From positions 14,524-78,523 of the forward strand of contig JAJTIE010000018.1 in NCBI GenBank assembly GCA_021300195.1: a stretch of DNA of 64,000 nucleotides, given 5' to 3'. Of the stretch, positions 8,828 to 36,953 are shown one piece after another. The notes below the pieces were generated by a model. The model was given only the letters and a program-made list of their open reading frames with translations. It was not told the origin of the DNA and searched no databases. How positions within the stretch are numbered: the stretch's first letter is position 1; every line of letters begins with the position of its first letter. The stretch comes from Bacteroidota bacterium (GTDB lineage: Bacteria > Bacteroidota > Bacteroidia > J057 > JAJTIE01). A program made the position numbers and the translations under genes.

Positions 8828-8835
8828 CAAAGGTA
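8828..8835 (-). promoter_or_regulatory. Bacteroidota-type -7 promoter box (TAccTTTG)
   Basis: The reverse complement of caaaggta is TACCTTTG, matching the TAnnTTTG consensus. It lies 4 nt upstream of the start codon at 8823, which implies a near-leaderless mRNA. Confidence 0.45.
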
Positions 8836-23996: not shown

Positions 23997-24647
23997 CTAG
24001 GCCAGGAACAGTGCCAGCGTGGCAAAAAAGAGAAACTGCATGCCCAGCACCCAGGGGGCCAGCGGGTTTGTGCGTGTGGGCGCCTTGTATTGCCACAGTA
24101 GGCTGAAGAGCAGGGCCAGCACAAACCAGGCCAGGTAGTTCTGTAGCGGGGGGGTGGGTGCCTGCCAGCGCCACATATCCAGGGCAATGGCTACCGGCTC
24201 CATACACACATCCAGCAGCAGCAGTAGCAGGGCCGCTAGCAGGGCACGCCAGGGGGGGGGCACCAGCCGGTGCAGCCTAGGCAGGCTATTGGCTGCCGCC
24301 ACCAGCAGCAGCCAGTTTAGGCCAATAAGCAGGGGCGTGCCCCACAGCTGTATGCCCAGCACCGGGCCATAGGCATAGGCACCAAAAGGAAAATGCGTCT
24401 GCACGCCCAATACCTCCACCCCAAAGCCCAGGCCATACACAGCCAGCGCCACTGGCAGCCAGGCCCTGCCCGGGTGCTGCAAGAAAAAAAGAGCGGATAC
24501 CAGCAGCAGATGGTAGGGCGTCATCCACACAAACAGGGGGCGGCTGTAGGGCCACAGCATGCCGGCTGTACCCACCACATACGTAACCCCAATGATGAGG
24601 CGGGCGGCTGGATAGGAAATGCTAGGAAACAAAGCCAATGGAAACAA
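23997..24647 (-). CDS. Carotenoid-biosynthesis-associated membrane protein (DUF422-like)
   Basis: About 7 TM helices. The pattern GFGVEVLGVQTHFPFGAYAY...GTPLLIGLNW resembles DUF422. Confidence 0.5.
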   Translation of the reverse strand: MFPLALFPSISYPAARLIIGVTYVVGTAGMLWPYSRPLFVWMTPYHLLLVSALFFLQHPGRAWLPVALAVYGLGFGVEVLGVQTHFPFGAYAYGPVLGIQLWGTPLLIGLNWLLLVAAANSLPRLHRLVPPPWRALLAALLLLLLDVCMEPVAIALDMWRWQAPTPPLQNYLAWFVLALLFSLLWQYKAPTRTNPLAPWVLGMQFLFFATLALFLA

Positions 24648-24744
24648 GCGCTTATCGTGTGTAAGATAGAACGAAAGCCGGGAAGAACAGCAGCAGCAAG
24701 ATCGGCAAAAGCAAGATTAGCCCCTAACATTGCCGCCAGGCTAT

Positions 24745-24752
24745 TACCTTTG
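24745..24752 (+). promoter_or_regulatory. Bacteroidota-type -7 promoter box (TAccTTTG) for carB
   Basis: Exact TAnnTTTG match ending 9 nt before the carB ATG at 24762. It supports the internal start. Confidence 0.45.
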
Positions 24753-24761
24753 TCCCCTGTT

Positions 24762-27575
24762 ATGCCCAGAGACACCTCCATCCAATCGGTCCTGATCATC
24801 GGCAGTGGCCCCATCATCATCGGTCAGGCGTGCGAGTTCGACTATTCCGGCACACAGGCCGCGCGTGCCCTGCGCGAGGAAGGCATAGCAGTTAGCCTGA
24901 TCAACAGCAACCCCGCCACCATCATGACCGACCCCATGATGGCAGACCAGGTGTATCTGTGGCCACTCACCCGCAAGAGCATTGTGCGGATACTGGAGGA
25001 GCGCAAGATAGATGCCGTACTGCCCACCATGGGTGGCCAAACAGCCCTGAACCTGTGCATAGAATGCAGCAAGGCTGGAATTTGGGACAAATACGGCGTG
25101 CGCATCATCGGCGTAGACCTGGATGCCATCCACCGGGCCGAAGACCGGGATGTGTTTCGGCGACTGATGGCCGATATTGGTGTGGAAACACCCAAAAGCC
25201 GCGTGGCGCGCAGCTTCCTGGAGGGCAAGGAGGCCGCACAGGAAATCGGCTTCCCACTGGTTATCCGCAGCTCCTACACCCTGGGTGGAACTGGCGGCGG
25301 CTTTGTGCACCGAAAGGAGGACCTGGACAAAGCCCTACGCTATGGCCTGGAGAGCAGCCCTGTGCACGAGGTACTGCTGGAAGAAAGCATTTTTGGATGG
25401 AAGGAGTACGAGCTGGAATTGCTGCGCGATGGCACGGGCAACTTTATTGTCATCTGCACCATCGAGAATTTTGACCCCTGTGGCATCCACACGGGCGACT
25501 CGGTAACCGTGGCACCGGCCCTTACCCTACCCGACACCCAGTATCAGGCCATGCGAGACCAGGCCATACGGGTAATGAACAGCATAGGCACCTTTGCCGG
25601 CGGCTGCAACATCCAGTTTGCCCTCGACCCAGAGTCTGGCCGCATTATTGTGATCGAAATCAACCCCCGTGTAAGCCGCAGCTCGGCCCTGGCCAGCAAG
25701 GCCACGGGCTACCCAATTGCCAAAATTGCTGCCAAGCTAGCCATTGGCTACAACCTGGACGAACTGCACAACCAGATTACCAAAACCACCTCGGCCTGCT
25801 TTGAGCCCAGCATAGACTATGTGGTAACCAAAATTCCACGCTGGAACTTCGAGAAATTTCAGGGTGCCAGCCGGGCCCTGGGCCTCACCATGAAAAGCGT
25901 GGGCGAGGTGATGGGCATTGGCCGAACCTTTGCCGAAAGCATACAAAAAGCCGCCCAGAGCCTGGAGATAAAGCGCAACGGACTGGGGGCAGATGGACGC
26001 GAACTGCGGAAAACCGAGCGCCTGATGGAGAGCCTGGCCAACCCCAGCGCCAATCGCTTATTCCACGTGCACGATGCCATGCAGGCCGGCATCAGCCGAG
26101 ATACGATACAGAAAACTACCCGGATAGACCCCTGGTTTCTGGATCAGGTAAACAGCATTGTACGGATGGAGGAGGAGCTGCGCCAGCACCGGCTGAACAA
26201 CATCCCCACCGAACTGCTGCGGCGGGCTAAGCAGATGGGCTTTGCCGACCGCCAGATAGCCCACCTGATAGACTGCCTGGAAAGCCAGGTGTACAAGCTG
26301 CGCACCGAGATGGGCATAAACCGCGTGTACAAAATGGTGGATACCTGTGCCGCCGAGTTTGAAGCCCAGACGCCCTACTACTACAGCACCTTCGAGGGCG
26401 AAAACGAAAGCCGGGTATCAAACAAAAAGAAAATCGTAATCCTGGGTAGCGGGCCCAACCGGATAGGCCAGGGCATTGAGTTTGACTACTGCTGTGTGCA
26501 TGGCCTCCAGGCCGTAAAGGAGGCCGGCTACGAGGCCATTATGGTAAACTGCAACCCCGAAACCGTAAGTACCGACTTTGACATAGCCGACAAGCTGTAC
26601 TTCGAGCCTGTATTCTGGGAGCATGTGTACGACATCATCCAGCACGAAAAGCCCGAGGGCGTGATCGTACAACTGGGCGGCCAAACAGCCCTGAAGCTGG
26701 CCGAAAAACTGACCAAATACGGCATACCCATCATAGGCAGCAGCTTTGACAGCATAGACCTGGCCGAGGACCGTGGCCGCTTCAGCACCCTGCTGCGCGA
26801 CCTGGAGATACCCTACCCCGTGTTTGGCGTGGCACGCAGCGCACAAGAGGCCCTGGACCTGGTGAAAGACATTGGCTACCCCGTGCTGGTGCGCCCCAGC
26901 TACGTGCTGGGAGGCCAGCGCATGCGCATCGTCATCAACGACGAGGAGCTGGAAAGCCATGTAATAAAGGTGCTGCGCGAAATGCCCGGAAACCAGGTGC
27001 TGATAGACCGATTTCTGGAAGGCGCTGCCGAGGCCGAGGCCGATGCCCTGGCCGACGGGGAACAGGTGCACGTAATGGGCATCATGCAGCACATAGAGCC
27101 CGCCGGCATACACAGCGGAGACAGCACCGCCGTGCTGCCCCCCTTCGACCTGGGCGACCTGACCCTGAAAACAATAGAAGACTATACCATACGGATTGCC
27201 AAGGCACTGAACGTGAAGGGCCTCATCAATGTGCAATTTGCCATCCACAAGGGTAAGGTGTATGTGATAGAGGCAAACCCGCGTGCCAGCCGTAGTATGC
27301 CCTTTATCTGCAAGGCCTACCAGAAGCCCTACCTGAACTATGCCACCAAAGTAATGATGGGCACCCACCGGGTATCCGACTTTGACCTAACCCCCATCCG
27401 TACCGGCTACGCCATCAAGGTGCCGGTCTTTAGCTTCAGCAAGTTTCCCAACGTGAACAAGGAGCTGGGGCCAGAAATGAAAAGCACGGGCGAGGAAATC
27501 CGCTACATAGATGACCTGATGGACGAATACTTCCTGCAGGTGTACAGCGAACGCAACCTCTACCTCAGCCGCTAG
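24762..27575 (+). CDS. carB: Carbamoyl-phosphate synthase large subunit
   Basis: MPRDTSIQSVLIIGSGPIIIGQACEFDYSGTQA is the canonical CarB N-terminus. Two ATP-grasp halves and a C-terminal MGS-like domain follow. The 123 upstream codons of the track ORF are antisense shadow over the neighbouring membrane-protein gene. Confidence 0.97.
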   Translation: MPRDTSIQSVLIIGSGPIIIGQACEFDYSGTQAARALREEGIAVSLINSNPATIMTDPMMADQVYLWPLTRKSIVRILEERKIDAVLPTMGGQTALNLCIECSKAGIWDKYGVRIIGVDLDAIHRAEDRDVFRRLMADIGVETPKSRVARSFLEGKEAAQEIGFPLVIRSSYTLGGTGGGFVHRKEDLDKALRYGLESSPVHEVLLEESIFGWKEYELELLRDGTGNFIVICTIENFDPCGIHTGDSVTVAPALTLPDTQYQAMRDQAIRVMNSIGTFAGGCNIQFALDPESGRIIVIEINPRVSRSSALASKATGYPIAKIAAKLAIGYNLDELHNQITKTTSACFEPSIDYVVTKIPRWNFEKFQGASRALGLTMKSVGEVMGIGRTFAESIQKAAQSLEIKRNGLGADGRELRKTERLMESLANPSANRLFHVHDAMQAGISRDTIQKTTRIDPWFLDQVNSIVRMEEELRQHRLNNIPTELLRRAKQMGFADRQIAHLIDCLESQVYKLRTEMGINRVYKMVDTCAAEFEAQTPYYYSTFEGENESRVSNKKKIVILGSGPNRIGQGIEFDYCCVHGLQAVKEAGYEAIMVNCNPETVSTDFDIADKLYFEPVFWEHVYDIIQHEKPEGVIVQLGGQTALKLAEKLTKYGIPIIGSSFDSIDLAEDRGRFSTLLRDLEIPYPVFGVARSAQEALDLVKDIGYPVLVRPSYVLGGQRMRIVINDEELESHVIKVLREMPGNQVLIDRFLEGAAEAEADALADGEQVHVMGIMQHIEPAGIHSGDSTAVLPPFDLGDLTLKTIEDYTIRIAKALNVKGLINVQFAIHKGKVYVIEANPRASRSMPFICKAYQKPYLNYATKVMMGTHRVSDFDLTPIRTGYAIKVPVFSFSKFPNVNKELGPEMKSTGEEIRYIDDLMDEYFLQVYSERNLYLSR

Positions 27576-27765
27576 GCACTACCCCTGCGGGGATTTTCGC
27601 GAATAAGTATATTTAGAGAGCAACAGATGCCTCTCGCGGTACGGCCCTGGCAGCCTGCCCTGGCGGGGCAGCAGGCGGGGCAAGGCCACAGTGCCTTTGC
27701 TACTTTTCTTTTGCTCCTCGGCTAGCCTTAGGGCCAGGGGACCAGTACCTACTCAGCAGCACGGG

Positions 27766-27795
27766 GTACGCACCCACTGTTTTGTGCGTACTTTT
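27766..27795 (+). other. 8-bp stem hairpin plus T-run immediately before the R-M start codon
   Basis: GTACGCAC (27766-27773) pairs with GTGCGTAC (27784-27791) across a 10-nt loop, followed by TTTT. The 3' arm overlaps a near-consensus -7 box, TActTTTa. Its function is ambiguous: a terminator-like insulator or a promoter element. Confidence 0.3.
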
Positions 27796-27800
27796 AAGCC

Positions 27801-30800
27801 ATGCTTTTTACCGAACAGCCCCTGCTGCAAACACTGCCCCTGGAATGGCGCGCCCGTACGGTAGAGCTGGGTGAGCTGGAAACCTTTGTAGCGGCACTGC
27901 AGCAGCTGCTGGCGGGCCTGAATGACAAGGAGACCGAAGAGCACAACAAAAACCTGGTGCGCGACTTCCTGAAGGCAGCCTTTGCTGCCGACTATGCCGA
28001 TACCAACACCAAGGGCCGGGTAGACCTGGCCGTGTACCAGGACGGGATGCCCGTGGTGCTGATAGAGGCCAAGGCACCCGGCAAGCATGCGGACTTCCCT
28101 ACGCCCGGCGACCTGAACACCAAGGCGCTGCACGAGCTGGTGCGCTACTACATGGCCGAACGCCTAGAGCACGCCAACAACCGCATCACCCAGCTGATCA
28201 TCACCAACGGGCTGGAGTGGTATATCCTGCAAGCGCAAGACGTGGAGCGCCACTTCTACGAGCACACAGCCTTTCGCAAAGCCTACCAGAGCTGGGCCAA
28301 GGGCGACCTGACCAGCCAGAAGACGGACCACTTCTACAAAGAAATAGCCCGCCCCCACATAGCGCAGCTGGAGGCCGAGCTGCCCTACCTGTACCTGAAC
28401 CTGCGCGAGCTGGGCACCCTGCCCGAAAGCCTGGCACAGCTGCGCAACCATAGCACCTGGCTACAGGCCTTCCGGGTGCTGCACCCCCACCACCTGCTGA
28501 AAAAGCCGCTGCCCAACCGAGGCAATACGCTGAACCGCCCCTTCTACGAGGAGCTGCTACATGTGCTGGGCCTGCAGGAGGAGGGCACCAAAAACCCCAA
28601 GCCCATCACCCGCCTGCCCGAAGCTGAGCGGCAGCCCGGCGCGCTGATGGAGAATGTGGTGGCCACCATGGTGGCCAAAGGCAAAAAGCTGCTGGAGCGC
28701 GAGCCCCTGATGTCGATGGTGCCCACCTATGGCACCACCTATGACGAGCAGGTGTTCAATATGGCCTTTGAGCTGGTGAGCACCTGGCTGAACCGCATCC
28801 TCTTCCTCAAGCTGCTGGAGGGCCAGCTGGTAAGCTACCATGTGAACAACAAGGGCGAACCCGGCGATGCCCGGCAGGCTTTTCTCCATACCAAAAAGAT
28901 ACCCGACTTCTTTGCCCTGCGCGATCTCTTCTTCCAGGTGCTAGCCGAGCGGCCCGAACAGCGCGAGCAGGAGCTGAAGGAGCTCTTTGGCCATGTGCCG
29001 TACCTAAACAGTTCGCTCTTTGAGCGCACAGCGCTGGAGGAGGCCACGGGCATAGAAATCAGCAGCCTGTACCCCCACCGCAGGCTGCTGCCCTACCGCA
29101 AAACGGTGCTGCGGGTAAAACCCGACACACCCCTAGACTTTCTGCCCTACCTGTTCGACTTTCTGGATGCCTACGACTTTAGCACCGTGGAGGTACGCGA
29201 GGTGCGGGCGGGCAACCGTGGCCTGATAGACGCACGGGTGCTGGGCCTGGTATTTGAGAAGCTGAATGGCTACAAAGACGGCTCCTTCTACACCCCCAGC
29301 TTTGTTACCATGTTTATGGCCCGCGAGGCGGTGCAGCGCGCTGTGGTGAACAGCCTGAACCGCGAGCTGAAGTGGGACTGCCCGGACTATGCCGCCCTGC
29401 GCGACCGTGTGGAGTGCCTGAAGAAGGAGGAACGACCCCGGGTGTCGGGCCTCATCCGCCAGCTGCGGGTGGTAGACCCCGCCGTGGGCAGCGGCCACTT
29501 CCTGGTATCGGTGCTGAACCAGCTGATATACACCCTGTGGGAGCTGGAGCTGCTGTACTACCACGACAGTGCCAGGGGCAAAGACAGCGACAAGCTGGTG
29601 CTGCCCGCACGCTACACCTTCAGCATCGTGGAGGACGAGCTACTGCTGGCAGACCAAAATGGAGACCGCCTGCGCTACCACCTGGGCCGAGACGGAAAGC
29701 CCAACGCCGAGGTGCAGGCCCTGCAAGAAACCCTCTTCCACCTGAAGCAGGAGCTGATAGAGAACTGCCTATTTGGCGTGGACCTCAACCCCGCATCTGT
29801 ATACATCTGCCGCCTGCGCCTGTGGATAGAGCTGCTGAAGCACGCCTACTATGCCGCGCCCCACTATCGGCATATGGAAACCCTGCCCAACCTGGATATC
29901 AACATCAAGCCGGGAAACAGCCTGGCCAGCAAGTTCCGATTGCACCTACCGTTTGTTGAAACCCGAAACGAAGAAATCTCGCTGGCACTGTACTTAAGCA
30001 GTGTGCATGCCTATAAGCACGAAAAAGATATAGAAGAAAAAGGGCGGCTTACTGCGTATATCGATAAGGTAAAAAAACACTTCACAAAATCATTCCGGGT
30101 ACAAAAAAACGACCCGCTTGAAGTAAAGAGAACTCAGCTTGAATCCCAGCTGATGGAACTGACAGGCCTGGGGATGGAAAGACTTCTGTTAAGTATTATG
30201 GAAGTATGGTCCGATGAGTCCAGAAAAAAGAAGATTGAAAAAATAACCAGCCAAATCCAAGAGATAGAGCAGGAGATAAAGAAAAAGGAAACGGGCATCC
30301 TCTGGAGAAATGCTTTTGAATGGCGGTTCGAGTACCCGGAGGTGCTGGACGAGCGGGGCGACTTTGCGGGCTTCGACCTCGTGATCGGCAACCCGCCCTA
30401 CATACGCCAGGAGCAGATACAGCACCTGAAGCGTGTGCTGGAGCAGAACTACGACACCTACACCGGCAGGGCTGATATATATGTCTTCTTCTTCGAGCTG
30501 GGCTACCAGCTGCTGCGGCCCGGTGGCACCCTGGCCTACATTACCAGCAACAAGTTTATGCGCGCGGGCTATGGCGAAAAGCTGCGCGCCTACCTACAGC
30601 AGCACATGGCCATCCGCACGCTGGTCGACTTTGGCGACCTGCCAGTGTTTGACGAGGCCATAGCCTACCCCGCTATCTACGTAGGCGAAAAACGACAGCC
30701 CGAACCCGAGGGCAGCGGCCTGCTGGCCCTCACCGTGACAGACAAGGCCGAGATGAAAACCTTTGCCCAGCTGTACGACACCCAGGCCCTGCGGCTGGCC

Positions 30801-31736
30801 CAGCAGCAGCTGGAGCCCACCGCCTGGCGGCTGGAAGACCCGCAGGTGAGCCGCCTGCTAGACAAGATGCGCCGTGCCGGCACCCCCCTGGGCGAGTATG
30901 TGAGCGGCAAGATATTTTACGGCATCAAGACCGGCCTGAACGAAGCCTTTGTGGTGGATGCCGCCACCAAAGACCGTCTGATAGCCGAAGACCCCCGCAG
31001 CATCGAGGTGCTGAAGCCCTTCCTGCGGGGTAGGGACATCAAGCGGTACGAAAAGCCGGTGGCAGAGACCTGGCTGATCCTGCTACCCAAAGGCATTACC
31101 ATCAAAAGCGCGCGCGACGGCGAACCCCTTCCTGCTTTTTTACAGGGAACGGTGGTGGAAGAGGCACCCGCCCGCTATGGCACCATCGCCTACGAAGAAG
31201 CGGAGGAGTGGCTAAAGGGAAGCTATCCCGCTATATACAAATGGCTGTTGCCCTTTAGGGAGAAGGCGGAAGCACGCGCAAACCAGGGCGACTTCTGGTG
31301 GGAACTGGGAGCTTGTAGCTATTATCCCGAATTTCTGAAGCCCAAAATTGAAGTGCCCGCCATTGTCTCGCGCAGTAGCTGTACGCTAGACACACAGGGG
31401 GCTTTTTCGAATGACAAAACCACCATCATAACGGGTGAAAAAGTATTGCTAGTATTACCCCTATTGAACAGCAGGGCGGCAGAGTTCTTTATGAAGTGTA
31501 TCTCGCCTACTCGCCAAAATGATTATTATGAGTACAAGCCCGTCTATCTCGCCAGGATTCCCATCCCCAAAGCCAGCAAAGCGCAGCAGAAGAACCTGGA
31601 AAAGCTGGCCCAGCAGGTAATGGATGCCAAGGCGCAGGGCGCAGATACCGCAAACCTGGAGGCGCAGATAGACACCCTGGTGTACGAGCTGTACAGCCTC
31701 AGCACAGATGAAATCGCACTAATAGAACAGGGCTAG
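27801..31736 (+). CDS. Type IIG restriction-modification enzyme (fused PD-ExK endonuclease / N6-adenine DNA methyltransferase / TRD; Eco57I/TaqII-like)
   Basis: 1311 aa. The N-terminal nuclease motif is D(28023)LAV...VVLIE(28065)AK(28071). The AdoMet motif I is VVDPAVGSGHFLV (about 29469-29501). Catalytic motif IV is VIGNPPY, with NPPY at 30390-30401. The C-terminal 300 aa or so is variable and TRD-like. There is no separate hsdS or hsdR gene and no BREX partner genes. Confidence 0.85.
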   Translation: MLFTEQPLLQTLPLEWRARTVELGELETFVAALQQLLAGLNDKETEEHNKNLVRDFLKAAFAADYADTNTKGRVDLAVYQDGMPVVLIEAKAPGKHADFPTPGDLNTKALHELVRYYMAERLEHANNRITQLIITNGLEWYILQAQDVERHFYEHTAFRKAYQSWAKGDLTSQKTDHFYKEIARPHIAQLEAELPYLYLNLRELGTLPESLAQLRNHSTWLQAFRVLHPHHLLKKPLPNRGNTLNRPFYEELLHVLGLQEEGTKNPKPITRLPEAERQPGALMENVVATMVAKGKKLLEREPLMSMVPTYGTTYDEQVFNMAFELVSTWLNRILFLKLLEGQLVSYHVNNKGEPGDARQAFLHTKKIPDFFALRDLFFQVLAERPEQREQELKELFGHVPYLNSSLFERTALEEATGIEISSLYPHRRLLPYRKTVLRVKPDTPLDFLPYLFDFLDAYDFSTVEVREVRAGNRGLIDARVLGLVFEKLNGYKDGSFYTPSFVTMFMAREAVQRAVVNSLNRELKWDCPDYAALRDRVECLKKEERPRVSGLIRQLRVVDPAVGSGHFLVSVLNQLIYTLWELELLYYHDSARGKDSDKLVLPARYTFSIVEDELLLADQNGDRLRYHLGRDGKPNAEVQALQETLFHLKQELIENCLFGVDLNPASVYICRLRLWIELLKHAYYAAPHYRHMETLPNLDINIKPGNSLASKFRLHLPFVETRNEEISLALYLSSVHAYKHEKDIEEKGRLTAYIDKVKKHFTKSFRVQKNDPLEVKRTQLESQLMELTGLGMERLLLSIMEVWSDESRKKKIEKITSQIQEIEQEIKKKETGILWRNAFEWRFEYPEVLDERGDFAGFDLVIGNPPYIRQEQIQHLKRVLEQNYDTYTGRADIYVFFFELGYQLLRPGGTLAYITSNKFMRAGYGEKLRAYLQQHMAIRTLVDFGDLPVFDEAIAYPAIYVGEKRQPEPEGSGLLALTVTDKAEMKTFAQLYDTQALRLAQQQLEPTAWRLEDPQVSRLLDKMRRAGTPLGEYVSGKIFYGIKTGLNEAFVVDAATKDRLIAEDPRSIEVLKPFLRGRDIKRYEKPVAETWLILLPKGITIKSARDGEPLPAFLQGTVVEEAPARYGTIAYEEAEEWLKGSYPAIYKWLLPFREKAEARANQGDFWWELGACSYYPEFLKPKIEVPAIVSRSSCTLDTQGAFSNDKTTIITGEKVLLVLPLLNSRAAEFFMKCISPTRQNDYYEYKPVYLARIPIPKASKAQQKNLEKLAQQVMDAKAQGADTANLEAQIDTLVYELYSLSTDEIALIEQG

Positions 31737-31737
31737 C
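31561..31737 (+). repeat. Direct repeat copy 1 (last ~59 codons plus stop of the R-M gene)
   Basis: Aligns without gaps to 33668-33844. About 19 mismatches in 177 nt were counted by eye. Confidence 0.85.
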
Positions 31738-31804
31738 AGCACACATGGTACAGGCGCTACCGACGAGAAAAACAAGACTGCCCCACTAACGTACACACCC
31801 GCCA

Positions 31805-32455
31805 ATGGCTAGCAGTACAGCTAATACAGACTACACACAGCTATTCATCTACCGTATTACCCATAGGGACAATATACCCTATCTACTGGAAAAAGGTATT
31901 TGTTCGTCCAATAGTCTTAATGTTTCACCAAGTTATGTGAATATTGGCCATAAGGAGGTGATCGAAAAACGGAATGCTACGCCAGTAAGAATAGATGGGT
32001 ATGGTGTATTGCACGACTATGTGTCCTTTTATTTTACCCCACACTCGGTAATGTTGTACAACATCAAAACCGGCTATGGGAATGTTGAGCAACGGCCCCA
32101 GAATGAGATAGTGATATTACAGGCTTCTATTATGTGTGTTATTGCGAGTGGACAGCGCTTCTTCTTCACCGATGGCCAAGGCAATGCTCGCATCACTAAA
32201 CACTTAGCCAACCCAACGGATCTGGATAAAATCGATTGGCCGTTGATACGTAAACGTGATTTTAAAAACGAGCCGCAGGACATGGATAAGCACCGAAGAT
32301 ACCAGGCCGAATTTCATGTACATGGGTGCGTACCCGTTAGCTGCATCCATAAGATCGTTGCTTACGACACAGAAACCACTACTTTTGTAGAGAGGGAAGT
32401 AAATAAGAATGGGCTTTCCATTCCCGTACAGGAAGACACAAAGTATTACTTCTGA
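31805..32455 (+). CDS. darT: DarT, DUF4433-family DNA ADP-ribosyltransferase toxin
   Basis: Colinear with Thermus/Mycobacterium DarT as remembered: IYRITHRDN (cf. IYHITHIDN), VLHDYVSFYFTP (cf. VLHDYVPFYFCP), FFFTDGQG (cf. FVFTDRHG) and the catalytic-Glu box YQAEFHV (cf. KQAEFLV). The Glu codon is at 32309-32311. The gene is AT-rich relative to its flanks. Confidence 0.9.
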   Translation: MASSTANTDYTQLFIYRITHRDNIPYLLEKGICSSNSLNVSPSYVNIGHKEVIEKRNATPVRIDGYGVLHDYVSFYFTPHSVMLYNIKTGYGNVEQRPQNEIVILQASIMCVIASGQRFFFTDGQGNARITKHLANPTDLDKIDWPLIRKRDFKNEPQDMDKHRRYQAEFHVHGCVPVSCIHKIVAYDTETTTFVEREVNKNGLSIPVQEDTKYYF

Positions 32456-33510
32456 TGGCTATACGGTTCACACAGGGCAATCTATTACAGTCTGAGGCTG
32501 AGGCCTTGGTTAACACCGTTAATACTGTCGGGGTAATGGGTAAAGGTATTGCTTTGCAATTCAAGGAAGCCTTCCCTGCTAACTTCAAGGCTTATCGCGA
32601 AGCCAGCAAGCACAATGAGCTGGCGCCTGGTAAACTGCTAGTACTACGCGATAAAAATCTACAGTATGGGGAGAAGATCATCATCAACTTCCCTACCAAA
32701 ACGCACTGGAAAGGTGCCTCCAAATATGAGTATATAGAGAGCGGGCTGGTAGCACTACGTAAGCTACTGCTAAAGGGTGAGATACAGAGCATTGCCATTC
32801 CGCCACTGGGCTGTGGCCAAGGTGGGCTGGATTGGGCCCGTGTAAAGCTGATGATACTAGAGCATCTGCAGGGCCTGGAAACAGTAATCGACGTATATGA
32901 ACCCAATAGCGAAATCAAGGCTACATTACAAGCCCAGCCTATGCATAAAAAGCCTGTTAAGCTGACCCGGGCCAGGGCTATGCTACTCTATGCCTTGTTT
33001 CACTATGAGCAGCTGGGTGAACAGAGCAGCCCTTTTTCGGCCAATAAACTGGCTTACTTTCTGCAAAGACTAGGAGAGCCTATGAAATTGGAGTTCAAGC
33101 CTTACATTTATGGCCCCTACGATGAGAAAGTAACACATGTGCTTTATGCATTAAATGGGCAATATCTAAAGGGGTTGGAGCAGAAACAGGCCAAATCTTT
33201 TGAGCCCCTACTACTAGACTACAGCAAATGGAAAGAGGTGAGCACCTATGTGGCAGAGCAGCTGAATGAGGCAGAGCAAGACCGCCTTCAGCGACTAATA
33301 CAATTGCTTACCGGGTTTGAGAGCGAACTATCACTTGAGCTTCTAGCTACAGTAGACTTTATACTGGCCCGTAACCCTGAATACAACCAAAAACAGGTAA
33401 TGGAAGCTATACGCCGGTGGAACCGGCGCAAAGAGCGCTTGTTTAAGGAAGAGTATGTACAAATAGCATATAACCATTGGGTAGAGCACCAGGCACTTTT
33501 CAGCAATTGA
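32455..33510 (+). CDS. darG: DarG, macrodomain antitoxin (DNA ADP-ribosyl glycohydrolase) with C-terminal toxin-binding-type domain
   Basis: The N-terminal macrodomain FTQGNLLQSEAEALVNTVNTVGVMGKGIALQFK...IINFPTKTHW...PPLGCGQGGLDW is nearly colinear with TaqDarG. The Lys of FPTK is at 32698-32700. The start overlaps the darT stop in TGATG. Confidence 0.9.
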   Translation: MAIRFTQGNLLQSEAEALVNTVNTVGVMGKGIALQFKEAFPANFKAYREASKHNELAPGKLLVLRDKNLQYGEKIIINFPTKTHWKGASKYEYIESGLVALRKLLLKGEIQSIAIPPLGCGQGGLDWARVKLMILEHLQGLETVIDVYEPNSEIKATLQAQPMHKKPVKLTRARAMLLYALFHYEQLGEQSSPFSANKLAYFLQRLGEPMKLEFKPYIYGPYDEKVTHVLYALNGQYLKGLEQKQAKSFEPLLLDYSKWKEVSTYVAEQLNEAEQDRLQRLIQLLTGFESELSLELLATVDFILARNPEYNQKQVMEAIRRWNRRKERLFKEEYVQIAYNHWVEHQALFSN

Positions 33511-33639
33511 GTAAGGGGGACACCATAGTAGAATCGCATTGCCTATTGCAGGGCAGTCATTATCTCGTCCTCCTAAATCTATTAGTTGTACATACTATTT
33601 GAGCTCTACATGCCCTTCAATTAGGGGCAGATATTTGAG

Positions 33640-33843
33640 ATGAAAACACAACATGTTGAGACTATCCCCATCCCCAAAGCCACCAAGGCGCAGCAGAAGA
33701 ACCTGGAAAAGCTGGCCCAGCAGGTAATGACCGCCAAGGCGCAGGGCGAAAATACCGAAAGCCTGGAGGCGCAGATAGACGCTATCGTATACCAGCTGTA
33801 CGGGCTTAGCACAGATGAAATCGCACTAATAGCACAGGGCTAG
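33640..33843 (+). pseudogene. Orphan remnant of a Type IIG R-M gene 3' end (67-codon ORF)
   Basis: Residues IPIPKATKAQQKNLEKLAQQVMTAKAQG...STDEIALIAQG* parallel the R-M C-terminus IPIPKASKAQQKNLEKLAQQVMDAKAQG...STDEIALIEQG*. Only 8 unrelated codons (MKTQHVET) precede the homology. Confidence 0.6.
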
Positions 33844-33844
33844 C
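33668..33844 (+). repeat. Direct repeat copy 2 (displaced R-M 3' end)
   Basis: See 31561-31737. It has the same length and the same stop context (cagggcTAGc). Confidence 0.85.
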
Positions 33845-33926
33845 GGGGGCAGGGATCAGGCACACCAGCTGGCACCTGTCGACCCCCGACAAAACACACC
33901 GGGGAGGGGAGGCAGGGCTACTGCCA

Positions 33927-35315
33927 CTACACCAGCACGGCTGGCGCAGCCTGCACCCGGGCCTCAAACTCGTCCTGAAAGCGCAGGATAGCACCGCGTA
34001 CGGGCCAGGCGGCGGCATCGGCCAGGGCGCAGATGGTGCGGCCCTCCATGTTGTAGCACAGGTCTAGCAGCAGGTCCAGGTCGCGGGTGCCGGCCTGGCG
34101 GTGTACAAACTTGGCCAGCAGGCTCTTCAGCCAGCCGGTGCCCTCGCGGCAGGGGGTGCACTGGCCACAGCTCTCGTGGTCGTAAAAGGCGGCGGCGCGG
34201 TAGGCATAGCGCACCATGTCTACCGTTTCATCCAGCACCAGGATGCCGGCCGTACCCATGGCCGATCCGGCCTTGCCCAGGCTGTCAGCGTTCATGGTTA
34301 CGCCCTCTATGCTGAAGGGTTTGCCGTGGGCATCCACGTTGATGCGACCGCCCATCATGTCTTTGTACTGGTCGGTGGGTACCCAGCCGGGTGTGCTGCC
34401 GTCGGCCCGCAGCACGGGTACCGATACACCACCGGGCACCACGGCCTTTATCTTTTTGCCGCCGCGGATGCCGCCAGCTACATCGTAGATCAGGTCGGTA
34501 AGCAGCATGCCGGTGGGGTACTCGTACACGCCGGGCTTGTTTACATGGCCGCTGATGCCGTAGAGCACGGGGCCGGGATGATCGGGCGCACCCAGGCTGC
34601 TAAACCACTGGGCGCCGTTTTTCAGCACCAGGGGTACGTTGGCCAGGGTCTCTATGTTGTTGATGGTGGTAGGCTTGCCCCACAGGCCGTACTGGGCCGG
34701 GAACGGCGGCTTGCTGCGCGGGTAGGCCCGCTTGCCCTCCAGGCTCTCCATCAGGCTGGTCTCTTCGCCACATATGTAGGCACCGGCACCCTTGTGCACG
34801 AATACGTCGCAGCTAAACTGGGTGCCAAACAGGTTCTTGCCCGCATAGCCCTTGGCATAGGCCTCGTCTACTGCTGTTTGCAGGATGTCTATCCAGTCGG
34901 CATACTCACCGCGGATGTACACATAGGCCGCGTCCATCTGCATGGCGTAGCAGGCCAGTATGGCGCCCTCTATGAACAGGTGGGGGTTGAACTCGAAGAG
35001 GCGGCGGTCTTTGAAGGTGCCGGGCTCACTTTCGTCGCCATTGCAGGCCAGGTAGCGGGGCACCCCCTCCTGCTTGGGGGGCATAAAGCTCCACTTAAGG
35101 CCGGCGTTGAAGCCGGCTCCGCCGCGGCCGCGTATGTTGGCGGCCTTTACCAGGTCTATCAGCTTTTTAGGCTCCCAGCTTTCCTCTTTTACCACGCGCT
35201 TCAGCTGTGTGTAGCCCCCGTGCCGGGTGTACACGTCTATTTTGTGGTAGTCCGGTATGTCCGGCAGCAGCACCTTCTGATAGCTTTTCCAGTCCATGGT
35301 TTTGTACGGAGACAA
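33927..35315 (-). CDS. nuoF: NADH-quinone oxidoreductase subunit F (NuoF, 51-kDa FMN/NADH-binding subunit)
   Basis: GRGGAGFNAGLKW (FMN/NADH site), ACNGDESEPGTFKDR, and the 4Fe-4S ligands ESCGQCTPCREG...C are present. No nuoE or nuoG is adjacent. Confidence 0.95.
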   Translation of the reverse strand: MSPYKTMDWKSYQKVLLPDIPDYHKIDVYTRHGGYTQLKRVVKEESWEPKKLIDLVKAANIRGRGGAGFNAGLKWSFMPPKQEGVPRYLACNGDESEPGTFKDRRLFEFNPHLFIEGAILACYAMQMDAAYVYIRGEYADWIDILQTAVDEAYAKGYAGKNLFGTQFSCDVFVHKGAGAYICGEETSLMESLEGKRAYPRSKPPFPAQYGLWGKPTTINNIETLANVPLVLKNGAQWFSSLGAPDHPGPVLYGISGHVNKPGVYEYPTGMLLTDLIYDVAGGIRGGKKIKAVVPGGVSVPVLRADGSTPGWVPTDQYKDMMGGRINVDAHGKPFSIEGVTMNADSLGKAGSAMGTAGILVLDETVDMVRYAYRAAAFYDHESCGQCTPCREGTGWLKSLLAKFVHRQAGTRDLDLLLDLCYNMEGRTICALADAAAWPVRGAILRFQDEFEARVQAAPAVLV

Positions 35316-35415
35316 AGGTTTTACCGGGCCAAATTACGTAAAAGGATCCGAATGCCGGGTGCCAGGCTTGTATACAATCCAACATTACACGGGGCGGTGG
35401 CGGGCTAGGCTGAAT

Positions 35416-35566
35416 ATTAATGATTTGGTAACCCCTGGCGCGGGGCTGCATAGGCGGCTGGGGCTTAACCTGCGCGGCTTATGGCACGGAGGTCTGGATT
35501 TACAAACCGGTGCGCCGACACCCTGTGGGACTGGCTATATGCCTGGTGACGAGGCTGGCTGCGGGC
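35416..35566 (+). repeat. Direct repeat copy A (decayed copy of the pstS leader and 5' codons)
   Basis: About 90% identical to 36801-36953 with two 1-nt indels. The pstS-like ATG at 35481 runs into a TGA after 22 codons (35547-35549). Confidence 0.8.
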
Positions 35567-35638: not shown

Positions 35639-36643
35639 CTAGTCCGATTTGGTTACGCTCAGCTCCAGCACACCACCGGTGCAGGGCGGGAAAAGATCTG
35701 GGAAAACAGGATCGCCGCCCGGATTAAAGCCGCGGATGCGGTAGCGGATTACCTGGTAGGGCTGGCCGGCGGCCAGGCTGAAGGTGGCAGAGGTCTCACT
35801 TACCGTCAGGGGCTGGTAAGCGCCGTACGTGCCCGAGCCGGGCGTGGTCTCCTGGGCCACTTGTGTCTGATTGGGGCCAAAGCCACCGAGATCGATAAGG
35901 GTAAAGGTGGCAGCATCGCTACAGGTGGTTGCCGCGCCAGGCTCTTGCACCTTCAGGTTGCCATAGTCTACGGTAAACTGCTGCGGAAACTCCTCCGCGC
36001 TACAGTTGTTAAGGCTGATACGCGCATCATACTGGGTAACCAGGCCCACCCGGTCGGCACGCACGGGCAAGATAAACTCGTATTGATGGGCTCTATTGAT
36101 GGTGGCCCCATTGGCCGTAAAGGTGGCCGTTTGCCAGCTGCTTTCGCCCGAAATCCGGTATTCTACCTTACTCAGGTGCTCGTAGGTCACGAAATTAAAG
36201 TTGGCTACCTGGCTGGCCGCATCTGTACACAGCCTTCGCACTGCGCCTAAGAAGGCAATGTCGTAGAGCCCTTCTGCGCCATAGTTGATGGTGTAGTTCT
36301 GCGCAAACTCCTGCGGGCCACAGCCCGAGTTGTTGATGTTCTGATCGCTGATACGCACGTCATACTGGGTAAGCAGGCCCACGCGGTCGGCACGCACAGG
36401 CAAGATGAACGCGTATTGCAGGGTGCCCGTGGTGGTAACGGCGGCTGTTTGCCAGCTGCTTTCGCCCGAAATCCGGTATTCTACCTTGGGGATCACGCTG
36501 GTAGAAAAACCAAAGACGGCTTCCTGGCTTGCCGCATCTGCACACAGCGTTTGCTCTGTGGTAAAGAAGGTGATCTCGCACTGGGCGGCGGCCAGCTGTG
36601 CCGACAGCAGCAGGAGCAGCAAGAAGTAAAATAGCCTTTTCAT
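35639..36643 (-). CDS. Secreted protein with two ~115-aa tandem internal repeats (unknown family)
   Basis: The internal start MKRLFYFLLLLLLSAQLAAAQ is a signal peptide (ATG at 36643). The block KVEYRISGESSWQTA...ILPVRADRVGL.TQYD.RIS occurs twice. The repeat is also visible in the DNA (36131-36170 vs 36451-36490). Confidence 0.6.
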   Translation of the reverse strand: MKRLFYFLLLLLLSAQLAAAQCEITFFTTEQTLCADAASQEAVFGFSTSVIPKVEYRISGESSWQTAAVTTTGTLQYAFILPVRADRVGLLTQYDVRISDQNINNSGCGPQEFAQNYTINYGAEGLYDIAFLGAVRRLCTDAASQVANFNFVTYEHLSKVEYRISGESSWQTATFTANGATINRAHQYEFILPVRADRVGLVTQYDARISLNNCSAEEFPQQFTVDYGNLKVQEPGAATTCSDAATFTLIDLGGFGPNQTQVAQETTPGSGTYGAYQPLTVSETSATFSLAAGQPYQVIRYRIRGFNPGGDPVFPDLFPPCTGGVLELSVTKSD

Positions 36644-36800
36644 CAGAAAAAGACAATGTTGAAAAGCCACGCAAAGCAAAGATAGCGGCCCCGTGTGGAC
36701 AGATACGCCTGAAATGGCGAATAGTCGAAAATGATGTTGGGGCCCCGTGTGGGCCATACGCTGCATGCTGCCAGCCAACAGGGCGGGGGGGATATACATT

Positions 36801-36953
36801 ATTAATGATTTGGTAACCCCTGGCACGGGGCTGCATAGGCAGCGGGGGCTTAACTTGCGCGGCTTATGGCACCTAGGTCTGTATTTGCAAACCGGTGGGC
36901 CGGCACCCTGTGGGGGCTGGCTATATGCCTGGTAGCGGGGCTGGCTGCCGGGC
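36801..36953 (+). repeat. Direct repeat copy B (functional pstS leader and signal-peptide codons)
   Basis: See 35416-35566. It contains the pstS ATG at 36866 and an intact lipoprotein signal (LAGC). Confidence 0.8.

What the first reader, a model, noticed from the sequence alone, without database searches (positions are those of the whole stretch)
27576..33926. Compact two-layer defence islet (Type IIG R-M plus DarTG) between the core genes carB and nuoF
Seen in the sequence:
- The ~6.3 kb between the carB stop (27575) and the nuoF stop (33927) holds only the R-M gene, darT, darG and the R-M remnant.
- All are on the same strand.
- The R-M stop and the darT ATG are 68 nt apart. I could find no TAnnTTTG promoter box in that gap, whereas such boxes are easy to see before many other genes in this window.

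Inference: darTG may be read through from the R-M gene. That would give a single transcription unit combining a self/non-self nuclease with an abortive-infection DNA ADP-ribosyltransferase. A physical and possibly transcriptional fusion of these two DNA-targeting defences is not something I know to be described. It raises the question of cross-talk, for example whether DarT-modified ssDNA or stalled forks affect R-M activity, or whether methylation status matters to DarT targeting.
Basis: inference. Interest (0 to 1): 0.7.

Follow-up and report, generated by a model that had tools for sequence, protein, structure and literature searches.

The report
DarTG cargo inside an R-M gene's duplicated end
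A bacterial restriction enzyme gene and a DarTG toxin-antitoxin defence pair do sit together between two housekeeping genes, but this kind of pairing is already known; the new detail is that DarTG was recombined into the tail of the restriction gene, leaving a duplicated gene end that also brackets other cargo genes in related restriction genes.

Summary
Between carB and nuoF lie only an intact single-chain Type IIG R-M gene (27801-31736), darT (31805-32455), darG (32455-33510) and a 67-codon R-M C-terminal ORF, all on the + strand, with a 68-nt gap.

The claim that this pairing is undescribed does not hold. DarTG inserted in Type I R-M operons, with methylation/ADP-ribosylation cross-talk proposed, was reported in 2016. 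A single-promoter Type I R-M/DarTG2 island was dissected in 2025.

New here:
- The low-GC darTG cargo is bracketed by a 181-nt, 89%-identical direct duplication of the R-M gene's last 60 codons.
- The upstream copy is invariant across strains. The downstream relic has four haplotypes and marks a recombination breakpoint.
- Related R-M genes carry other cargo at the same spot: Pycsar, a Gp49/HTH pair and an unknown 595-aa gene. Two of these have the same kind of relic.
- None of 80 other DarTG loci sits next to this R-M family.

So the pairing is opportunistic docking, not a dedicated partnership. Read-through transcription is plausible but unproven: there is no -7 box within 500 nt upstream of darT and no hairpin in the gap. 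This is a new variant of a known kind, of moderate interest.

The parts
27789..27796 (+). Near-consensus Bacteroidota -7 box TACTTTTA (one mismatch) 4 nt before the R-M ATG; candidate R-M promoter
   Evidence: Five one-mismatch boxes lie in the 225-nt carB/R-M spacer. The geometry (box 4-9 nt before the ATG) matches exact boxes at 8828, 9182, 14535 and 24745. Inferred, not shown.
27801..31736 (+). Single-chain Type IIG restriction-modification enzyme (nuclease + N6-adenine methyltransferase + TaqI_C specificity domain), 1311 aa
   Evidence: Pfam DUF7149, DUF7814, Eco57I, TaqI_C. PADLOC REase_MTase_IIG E=5e-256. NPPY at residue 864 and D74...E88-x-K90. GC3 0.75, the same as carB at 0.74. Scores below the BREX PglX cut-offs.
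31557..31737 (+). Repeat arm A1: the last 60 codons plus stop of the working R-M gene
   Evidence: 181 nt, 89%. Identical in every strain examined.
31737..31804 (+). 68-nt R-M/darT spacer with no promoter box and no hairpin
   Evidence: MFE -10.9 against -16.3 +/- 2.6 kcal/mol for shuffles.
31805..32455 (+). darT, ssDNA ADP-ribosyltransferase toxin, 216 aa
   Evidence: Pfam DarT 3e-51. NCBIfam toxin_DarT equivalog. Aligns to Thermus DarT 7OMV with Glu in the QAEF motif at the position that reads Ala (QAAF) in that deposited chain. GC 0.43, GC3 0.47.
32380..32387 (+). Exact TACTTTTG box inside darT, 68 nt before the darG ATG; possible internal antitoxin promoter (weak lead)
   Evidence: Not enriched in other loci: 5 of 64 against about 6 expected, although 4 lie at -59 to -63.
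32455..33510 (+). darG, macrodomain ADP-ribosyl glycohydrolase antitoxin with C-terminal DarT-binding-type domain, 351 aa
   Evidence: PADLOC DarG 2e-117. NCBIfam equivalog. Macrodomain matches Thermus DarG 5M31, E=7.5e-41, with NFPTK conserved. C-terminal half matches the M. tuberculosis DarG chain 7YK3_B, E=1.6e-15.
33511..33663 (+). Low-GC (0.41) trailer that belongs to the cargo
   Evidence: Stop codons occur in the relic's frame. It has no similarity to the R-M gene.
33664..33844 (+). Repeat arm A2: relic of a former R-M allele's last 60 codons (inside the 67-aa ORF 33640-33843); population recombination breakpoint
   Evidence: Four haplotypes occur among strains, two of them with patches converted to the A1 sequence. 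In L125 it differs at 18 of 181 positions while darTG is about 99.9% identical.
33927..35297 (-). nuoF, right-hand housekeeping border
   Evidence: Pfam Complex1_51K, NADH_4Fe-4S. Gene call of 456 aa in public contigs.

Best explanation
This is a chromosomal defence islet in an uncultured Sphingobacteriia (Bacteroidota) species. A host-like-GC Type IIG R-M enzyme provides restriction of unmethylated incoming DNA. A canonical macrodomain-antitoxin DarTG module provides abortive infection by ADP-ribosylating single-stranded DNA.

darTG is foreign cargo. The spacer, darT, darG and trailer together span 31738-33663. This cargo was recombined into the 3' end of the R-M gene rather than beside it. 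It lies within a 181-nt direct duplication of the last 60 R-M codons. The upstream arm completes the working enzyme. The downstream arm is the relic of an earlier R-M allele.

The repeat spans exactly the part of the gene that stays similar between R-M alleles, from the IPIP motif after the specificity domain to the stop codon. The structure therefore most likely arose and spread by homologous recombination that used this conserved segment as a homology arm. Two routes fit: single-crossover integration of a circularised fragment, or a double crossover from a donor that already carried both arms.

darTG is probably transcribed by read-through from the R-M promoter, and darT and darG are translationally coupled.

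The pairing is opportunistic. The 3' end of this R-M family is a docking site for varied toxin or abortive-infection cargo. It is not a co-evolved R-M/DarTG machine.

Shown here: gene identities, the repeat, its population behaviour and its recurrence. Inferred: the recombination route, co-transcription and defence activity.
For: Identity and intactness.

Cargo is foreign. GC3 is 0.47 (darT) and 0.51 (darG) against 0.74-0.80 in carB, the R-M gene and nuoF. Both repeat arms have GC3 of 0.72.

The repeat is 181 nt, 161/181 identical, and its homology ends at the stop codon.

Population evidence:
- A1 is invariant and A2 has four haplotypes.
- Two of the haplotypes carry A1-like patches at 33683/33687 and 33730-33732.
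- L125 is 0.07% divergent to the left of 33700, 10% divergent in A2 and about 1% divergent across nuoF.
- All relic alleles keep the reading frame and an R-M C-terminal sequence.

Recurrence in the R-M family:
- L136: a Gp49-like plus HTH pair followed by a 94-nt, 90% relic.
- L181/L182: a 595-aa gene starting on the R-M stop, then a 104-nt, 98% relic.
- L124, the closest homologue at 64% identity: a low-GC Pycsar pair 4 nt after the stop.

No specific partnership:
- 0 of 80 DarG loci hold this R-M family.
- About 10-15% of those loci lie within Type I R-M operons.
- The closest DarG relatives are solo.

Other darTG cassettes are flanked by repeats derived from their target more often than control segments: 6/39 against 14/404, p=0.005.

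Read-through.

darTG is dispensable. In a sister MAG an IS481-like element sits between about 31822-31834 and 33720, with the R-M gene intact.
Against: - No transcript data exist. About 80% of genes in the window lack an exact box, so its absence before darT is weak evidence on its own. The 68-nt spacer could hold a non-canonical promoter.
- No darTG-free allele with an intact R-M gene and a hybrid C-terminus was found. No donor was found either; the nearest DarG is 64% identical. The direction and route of the recombination are therefore inferred.
- The first formation of the repeat still needs an illegitimate or circular-intermediate event that I cannot demonstrate.
- The census of R-M loci is small (about 14 non-redundant) and was made with crude ORF calls.
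- Control segments are not independent of one another.
Confidence: 0.65

Rival explanations
1. Dedicated partnership. The IIG R-M enzyme and DarTG form a co-evolved, co-transcribed unit with functional cross-talk. For example, DarT-modified DNA might affect restriction, or methylation might guide DarT.
For: Same strand, a 68-nt spacer with no box and no hairpin. The idea of R-M/DarTG cross-talk is in the literature for Type I systems.
Against: - 0 of 80 DarG loci hold this R-M family.
- The closest DarG relatives are solo in non-defence contexts.
- The closest R-M relatives carry Pycsar, a Gp49/HTH pair, AbiL plus an SNF2 helicase, or an unknown gene instead.
- GC3 shows that darTG and the R-M gene have different histories.
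- A sister strain keeps the R-M gene with darTG missing or interrupted by an IS.
Confidence: 0.1
2. Independent transcription. darTG keeps a promoter of its own, either non-canonical in the spacer or inside the R-M 3' end. The adjacency would then have no regulatory meaning.
For: Solo darTG cassettes elsewhere must be self-sufficient, and many carry a box close to darT. Toxin-antitoxin modules are usually autoregulated (general knowledge). An exact box lies inside darT before darG.
Against: No box, even with one mismatch, lies in the 500 nt before darT, where about 1.3 are expected from the window density. The spacer has no terminator. Related cargo genes abut the R-M stop.
Confidence: 0.35
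3. Decayed tandem paralogue. The relic is what remains of a second full-length IIG gene that once lay downstream of darTG. It would not be a by-product of cargo insertion.
For: L021 shows two complete tandem IIG paralogues with three genes between them, sharing their last 248 nt at 93.5%.
Against: In the window, L136 and L181 the relic starts directly at the end of the cargo. It is confined to the last 35-60 codons, with no trace of upstream R-M sequence. Three independent deletions ending at the same boundary are unlikely.
Confidence: 0.15
4. In-situ target duplication. The insertion mechanism copied 181 nt of the target exactly, and the two copies have since drifted to 89%.
For: Other darTG loci show flanking repeats from 100% (L064, 88 nt) and 97% (L050) down to 84%, which could be an age series.
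Against: Strains that are about 99.9% identical in darTG differ by 10% in A2. The A2 alleles remain open and look like R-M C-termini. That pattern fits exchange with other alleles, not local decay. No recombinase or transposase lies in the cargo.
Confidence: 0.1

Closest known systems
DarTG2 embedded in a Type I R-M operon (EPEC RptR-RMS-DarTG-M48 island, PMC12255303; general observation in Jankevicius et al. 2016, PMC5179494)
   Same: A thymidine-type DarT with a macrodomain DarG sits physically inside an R-M locus on the same strand. It is expressed from, or proposed to be expressed from, the R-M promoter. The site is described as a recombination hotspot for defence cargo.
   Different: - The partner here is a single-chain Type IIG enzyme, not hsdMSR.
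- The cargo sits in the duplicated 3' end of the enzyme gene, not between hsdS and hsdR.
- No M48 peptidase gene is present.
- No RptR-sized ORF is evident upstream, although this was not tested with a model.
PrrC anticodon nuclease embedded in the EcoprrI Type I R-M operon (own knowledge, not checked here)
   Same: An abortive-infection effector is encoded inside an R-M locus, giving a layered defence.
   Different: PrrC is physically held in check by the R-M complex. Nothing here indicates protein-level coupling, and DarT has its own antitoxin.
Integrative elements that carry a surrogate 3' end of their target gene, such as islands in tRNA or tmRNA genes (own knowledge)
   Same: The insertion regenerates the target gene's end and displaces the original end to the far side. 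This gives an imperfect direct repeat.
   Different: No integrase or other recombinase lies in the 1.9-kb cargo. The repeat spans the whole conserved segment rather than a short core. Homologous recombination is the likelier route.
Specificity-domain shuffling at R-M loci (hsdS shufflons, invertible IIG segments)
   Same: Partial copies of the R-M 3' region lie downstream of the expressed gene and recombine with it. Inverted copies of this kind are seen in L160 and L169.
   Different: The relic here is in direct orientation and lacks a specificity domain. Recombination would delete the cargo rather than switch specificity.

Membership tests
DarTG toxin-antitoxin / anti-phage system (thymidine-type, DarTG2-like) | DarT ADP-ribosyltransferase fold with the catalytic glutamate | tested here: met
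   Pfam DarT 3e-51. NCBIfam equivalog 214 bits against a cut-off of 150. In the alignment to Thermus DarT 7OMV, Glu of the query QAEF motif aligns with the Ala of QAAF in the deposited chain. That this position is the catalytic Glu (E160), mutated in 7OMV, is from my own knowledge.
DarTG toxin-antitoxin / anti-phage system (thymidine-type, DarTG2-like) | DarG with N-terminal macrodomain (catalytic Lys in NFPTK) and a C-terminal DarT-binding domain | tested here: met
   Thermus DarG 5M31 E=7.5e-41 with NFPTK conserved. C-terminal half matches M. tuberculosis DarG 7YK3_B, E=1.6e-15. PADLOC DarG 2e-117. NCBIfam 400 bits against a cut-off of 250.
DarTG toxin-antitoxin / anti-phage system (thymidine-type, DarTG2-like) | Toxin-first bicistron with coupled genes | tested here: met
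   The darT stop TGA overlaps the darG ATG (TGATG at 32453-32457).
DarTG toxin-antitoxin / anti-phage system (thymidine-type, DarTG2-like) | ssDNA thymidine ADP-ribosylation, reversal by DarG, and phage protection | not testable with these tools
   Needs biochemistry and plaque assays.
Type IIG restriction-modification enzyme | One polypeptide with a PD-(D/E)xK nuclease, a gamma-class N6-adenine methyltransferase (NPPY) and a specificity domain | tested here: met
   Domain order DUF7149 (overlapping HSDR_N), DUF7814, Eco57I, TaqI_C. D74...E88-x-K90 and NPPY at 864. PADLOC REase_MTase_IIG E=5e-256.
Type IIG restriction-modification enzyme | Stand-alone enzyme, not the PglX of a BREX system | tested here: met
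   It scores 80 bits against the PglX cut-offs of 400-900. No other BREX genes lie between carB and nuoF.
Type IIG restriction-modification enzyme | DNA cleavage at a fixed distance from the site, and methylation | not testable with these tools
   Needs enzyme assays or methylome data.
R-M-embedded DarTG island of the EPEC RRDM type | Type I hsdM/hsdS/hsdR flanking darTG | tested here: not met
   Only a single IIG gene is present.
R-M-embedded DarTG island of the EPEC RRDM type | RptR repressor as the first gene, and an M48 peptidase | tested here: inconclusive
   No M48 domain occurs in any ORF of the islet. The carB/R-M spacer holds only a 57-codon GTG ORF that overlaps the R-M start. It was not compared with RptR.
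Site-specific integrative element with a surrogate gene end | Element-encoded integrase or recombinase | tested here: not met
   The cargo 31738-33663 holds only darT and darG. No tRNA occurs in the window.

The most novel reading that the evidence does not exclude
The duplicated 3' end of the R-M gene may be more than a scar. It could work as a portable pair of homology arms. Small toxin-antitoxin or abortive-infection cargoes (DarTG, Gp49/HTH, unknown genes) could then move between alleles of a widespread IIG R-M family by ordinary homologous recombination, with no recombinase of their own, while always restoring the host enzyme. This would be a recombinase-free route of defence-cassette mobility, and relic-bracketed cargo would be a way to find new defence genes.
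Probability: 0.3. Interest if true: 0.65.

Novelty: new variant of a known kind. Interest (0 to 1): 0.4.

Why it matters
The pairing of DarTG with an R-M system has been known since 2016, so the islet itself adds only a Type IIG example.

The architecture is more useful. Three independent R-M genes of one family carry different cargo bracketed by a copy of their own conserved 3' end. In this species the relic is demonstrably a live recombination junction.

If this pattern is general, it explains how tiny defence modules without recombinases get around. It also explains why R-M loci accrete second-layer systems. And it gives a simple sequence signature for cargo discovery: an R-M gene end repeated a few kb downstream. 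The 595-aa gene in L181/L182 is one such candidate.

Tried and rejected
- The genome-contig scan with the R-M protein gave only five distant relatives at 29-39% identity. It found no sister species and no empty site.
- The exact look-up of the 462-aa nuoF ORF failed. The 456-aa gene call worked.
- The global TAnnTTTG count is not above chance. Only the positional test is informative.
- An internal darG promoter is not supported. The box occurs in 5 of 64 other loci against about 6 expected.
- I looked for a darTG-free recombinant R-M protein with a hybrid C-terminus in the 90% cluster. All members end in the A1 sequence.
- The small ORFs after the R-M gene in L133 (71 aa) and L180 (40 aa) are not C-terminal relics.
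- No C-terminal relic follows the Pycsar pair in L124.
- No Rfam family or tRNA lies in or near the islet.
- The sigma-70 and terminator scans are at the level of their shuffles.
- Hairpins after darG and after the relic are not stronger than shuffles.
- ORF 35639-36799 has no Pfam, PADLOC or NCBIfam match.
- A shufflon was considered and rejected. The relic is in direct orientation and lacks a specificity domain.
- An assembly artefact was considered and rejected. The same structure appears in more than 10 assemblies from four sources.
Full report
**1. What is there**

The 6.3 kb between carB (stop at 27575) and nuoF (stop at 33927, - strand) holds exactly four + strand ORFs.
- ORF 27801-31736 encodes a 1311-aa protein with the domains DUF7149 (overlapping HSDR_N), DUF7814, Eco57I methylase and TaqI_C. 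It matches a PADLOC Type IIG model at E=5e-256.
- It has a D74...E88-x-K90 nuclease-type motif and NPPY at residue 864. It scores far below the BREX PglX cut-offs.
- darT (31805-32455) and darG (32455-33510) pass the NCBIfam equivalog cut-offs, at 214 against 150 bits and 400 against 250 bits.
- DarT aligns with Thermus DarT. Its QAEF glutamate aligns with the Ala (QAAF) of the deposited chain; from my own knowledge that position is the catalytic Glu, mutated in the crystal form.
- The DarG macrodomain matches Thermus DarG at E=7.5e-41 with NFPTK conserved. Its C-terminal half matches the M. tuberculosis DarG chain solved with DarT.
- The module is therefore the canonical thymidine-type, macrodomain-antitoxin DarTG.
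- The 67-aa ORF 33640-33843 matches only the last 70 positions of the same IIG model.
- The spacer 31737-31804 is 68 nt.
- Public names of identical proteins place the source in an uncultured Sphingobacteriia bacterium.
- The same arrangement is collinear at 99.7-100% identity in more than 10 contigs from JGI, NCBI, ENA and Logan assemblies.

**2. The overlooked anatomy**

The 'remnant' is one arm of a direct repeat.
- Arms 31557-31737 and 33664-33844 are 181 nt long and 161/181 identical.
- The repeat starts at the IPIP motif that follows the specificity domain and ends at the stop codon. The sequences after the two stops are unrelated.
- The upstream arm (A1) is the working C-terminus. The downstream arm (A2) is displaced.
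- Between them lie the spacer, darT, darG and a 153-nt trailer.
- darT, darG and the trailer are foreign in composition: GC of 0.43, 0.47 and 0.41, and GC3 of 0.47 and 0.51. This compares with GC3 of 0.74-0.80 in carB, the R-M gene and nuoF.
- Both repeat arms have host-like GC3 of 0.72.
- darTG was therefore recombined into the end of the R-M gene in a way that regenerated the gene.

**3. The relic is a live recombination junction**

- Across strains A1 never varies, whereas A2 has four haplotypes.
- Two of the haplotypes differ from the window by patches that convert A2 to the A1 sequence, at 33683/33687 and at 33730-33732.
- A third haplotype (L125) differs at 18 of 181 positions. It still reads as an open, typical R-M C-terminus.
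- L125 is 0.07% divergent from the window to the left of 33700, a stretch that includes the R-M gene and darTG. It is 10% divergent in A2 and about 1% divergent across nuoF. The differences stop at 35649.
- That pattern is what exchange with other R-M alleles would give, with a crossover inside the conserved C-terminal segment. It is not what local decay of a pseudogene would give.
- In a sister MAG (GCA_046345135.1) one contig ends at the R-M gene, the spacer and the first 17-30 nt of darT, followed by one end of an IS. Another contig starts with the other end of that IS, joined at 33721.
- The two IS pieces carry matching terminal inverted repeats. On one strand they also carry the N- and C-terminal ends of a DDE transposase, the latter with a YNxERPH motif.
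- The simplest reading is that one IS481-like element replaces darTG while the R-M gene stays intact.

**4. No specific R-M/DarTG partnership**

- I fetched 80 metagenomic loci with DarG relatives of 38-60% identity. None has a tblastn match to this R-M protein within 8 kb.
- Of 45 genes immediately upstream of darT, 3 are HsdS, 1 is an N6 methylase and 2 are ResIII.
- Of 68 genes downstream of darG, 6 are HsdR and 2 are HsdM.
- About 10-15% of these loci therefore sit in Type I R-M operons, as published. None sits next to a IIG enzyme.
- The closest DarG relatives (60-62% identity) are solo two-gene cassettes, next to a truncated SusD gene or an efflux operon.

On the R-M side, the neighbours vary.
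- The closest homologue (64% identity, L124) is followed after 4 nt by a low-GC Pycsar pair: PycTM at 1.5e-27 and PycC at 4e-69.
- A 42% homologue (L136) is followed by a Gp49-like plus HTH pair, then a 94-nt, 90% copy of its own 3' end. The Gp49 match is weak: Pfam E=9e-4 and below the curated cut-off, on a 68-aa ORF with no PADLOC match.
- A 41% homologue (L181/L182) is followed by a 595-aa gene that starts on the R-M stop, then a 104-nt, 98% copy of its 3' end.
- L135 lies between AbiL and an SNF2 helicase.
- Of about 14 non-redundant R-M loci with enough downstream sequence, three, including the window, show cargo bracketed by a relic. One (L021) shows two full tandem paralogues sharing their ends.
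- The 3' end of this R-M family therefore behaves as a docking site for varied cargo.

**5. Flanking repeats elsewhere**

- Eight of 70 other darTG loci also have direct repeats on both sides.
- Where checked, the repeat is the 3' end of the interrupted or adjacent host gene: a YhcH gene in L053 and a GT2 glycosyltransferase gene in L075.
- With at least 1 kb on both sides the rate is 6/39, against 14/404 for shifted pseudo-cassettes in the same contigs. Fisher p=0.005, although the controls are not independent.

**6. Transcription**

- The box TAnnTTTG is not over-represented overall: 25 hits against 22 expected. However, 10 of 25 hits lie in the 12% of the window that is intergenic, mostly 5-107 nt before start codons.
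- The carB/R-M spacer holds five one-mismatch boxes, one of them 4 nt before the R-M ATG.
- The 500 nt before darT hold none, even with one mismatch.
- Sixteen of 51 other darT genes have an exact box, mostly 12-38 nt before the ATG.
- The spacer folds less well than its shuffles, z=+2.07, and no terminator-like site is found there.
- In L124 and L181 the cargo abuts the R-M stop.
- Read-through from the R-M promoter is therefore the more likely state, at perhaps 55-65%. It rests on sequence alone.

**7. Comparison with what is known**

- Jankevicius et al. [quoted passage not shown] They proposed methylation/ADP-ribosylation cross-talk or locus stabilisation.
- A 2021 review repeats the point.
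- A 2025 paper shows an EPEC island with DarTG2 between hsdS and hsdR under one RptR-repressed promoter. It calls the site a probable recombination hotspot.
- New here are the IIG partner and the relic-bracketed architecture. I did not find that architecture in the DarTG/R-M papers I read, and I did not search the literature specifically for it.

**8. Mechanism and its limits**

- The repeat equals the segment that stays similar between alleles. This is what single-crossover integration of a circular fragment carrying that segment plus cargo would produce.
- Once both arms exist, an ordinary double crossover within or left of A1 and within A2 can move the cargo into any related R-M gene. The L125 breakpoint fits this.
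- I could not find a donor, an empty site or a circle. The first formation event is unexplained.

**9. Verdict**

The islet is real and correctly described. It is a new variant (Type IIG) of a known kind of association. The pairing is best explained as opportunistic docking rather than a dedicated two-layer machine. The relic-bracketed cargo pattern is the part worth following up.

Noticed in passing
window 35415-35565 and 36800-36951: A second direct repeat of similar size and identity (152 nt, 89%) flanks ORF 35639-36799 (- strand, 386 aa, no Pfam, PADLOC or NCBIfam match). The repeat includes the upstream region and the first ~85 nt of the pstS-like gene at 36866. It looks like another insertion bracketed by a duplicated gene end, just across nuoF from the darTG one. 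In L125 the divergent tract runs from A2 to the end of this repeat (to 35649).
   Followed up: partly
window 35960-36263 and 36278-36578: An internal tandem duplication of about 300 nt at 72% identity lies inside the unknown ORF 35639-36799.
   Followed up: no
window 8828, 9182, 14535, 24745, 27789: Several -7-type boxes (TAnnTTTG) end only 4-9 nt before the start codon. This implies leaderless or near-leaderless mRNAs for these genes, including carB and the R-M gene.
   Followed up: no
window 24393-24761: The longest carB ORF (1060 aa) overshoots. Public gene calls start at 24762 (937 aa), and an exact box sits at 24745-24752.
   Followed up: partly
window 29901-30200 and 31101-31556: The R-M gene is compositionally mosaic. 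GC3 is 0.51 in a segment of the methylase region and 0.61-0.66 in the specificity domain, against 0.75-0.88 elsewhere. This suggests past domain exchange.
   Followed up: no
L131 (end) and L014 (end); window ~31822-31834 and 33720/33721: An IS481-like element (terminal repeats CTAG(C/T)CTTCATG, DDE transposase with YNxERPH) occupies the darTG position in MAG GCA_046345135.1.
   Followed up: partly
L064 1-88 and 2121-2208: A 2.2-kb metagenome contig holds only darT and darG, with identical 88-nt ends. It is either a repeat-bracketed cassette collapsed by the assembler or a circular molecule.
   Followed up: no
L034, L035, L037-L040 (darT called as 131 + 88 aa): darT is split by a frameshift in several populations, while sister contigs (L036, L041-L043) have the intact 211-aa gene. 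The toxin appears to be inactivated repeatedly.
   Followed up: no
L085, L086, L088, L090 (about 450-aa ORF directly upstream of darT): A second, longer protein with a DarT domain precedes the canonical darT-darG pair.
   Followed up: no
L182 7756-9543: A 595-aa protein (only a faint S1 hit, no PADLOC match) is translationally coupled to an IIG R-M gene and bracketed by the R-M relic. It is a candidate unknown defence gene.
   Followed up: partly
L160 and L169, about 1.3-1.6 kb downstream of a truncated R-M gene: An inverted 264-nt, 83% copy of the R-M 3' region lies in gut viral contigs. It looks like an invertible, phase-variable specificity segment.
   Followed up: no
L062, L065, L083, L093, and window 32380: Where a TAnnTTTG box occurs inside darT, it sits in a narrow band 59-75 nt before the darG start. 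This could be a conserved internal antitoxin promoter or a coding coincidence.
   Followed up: partly
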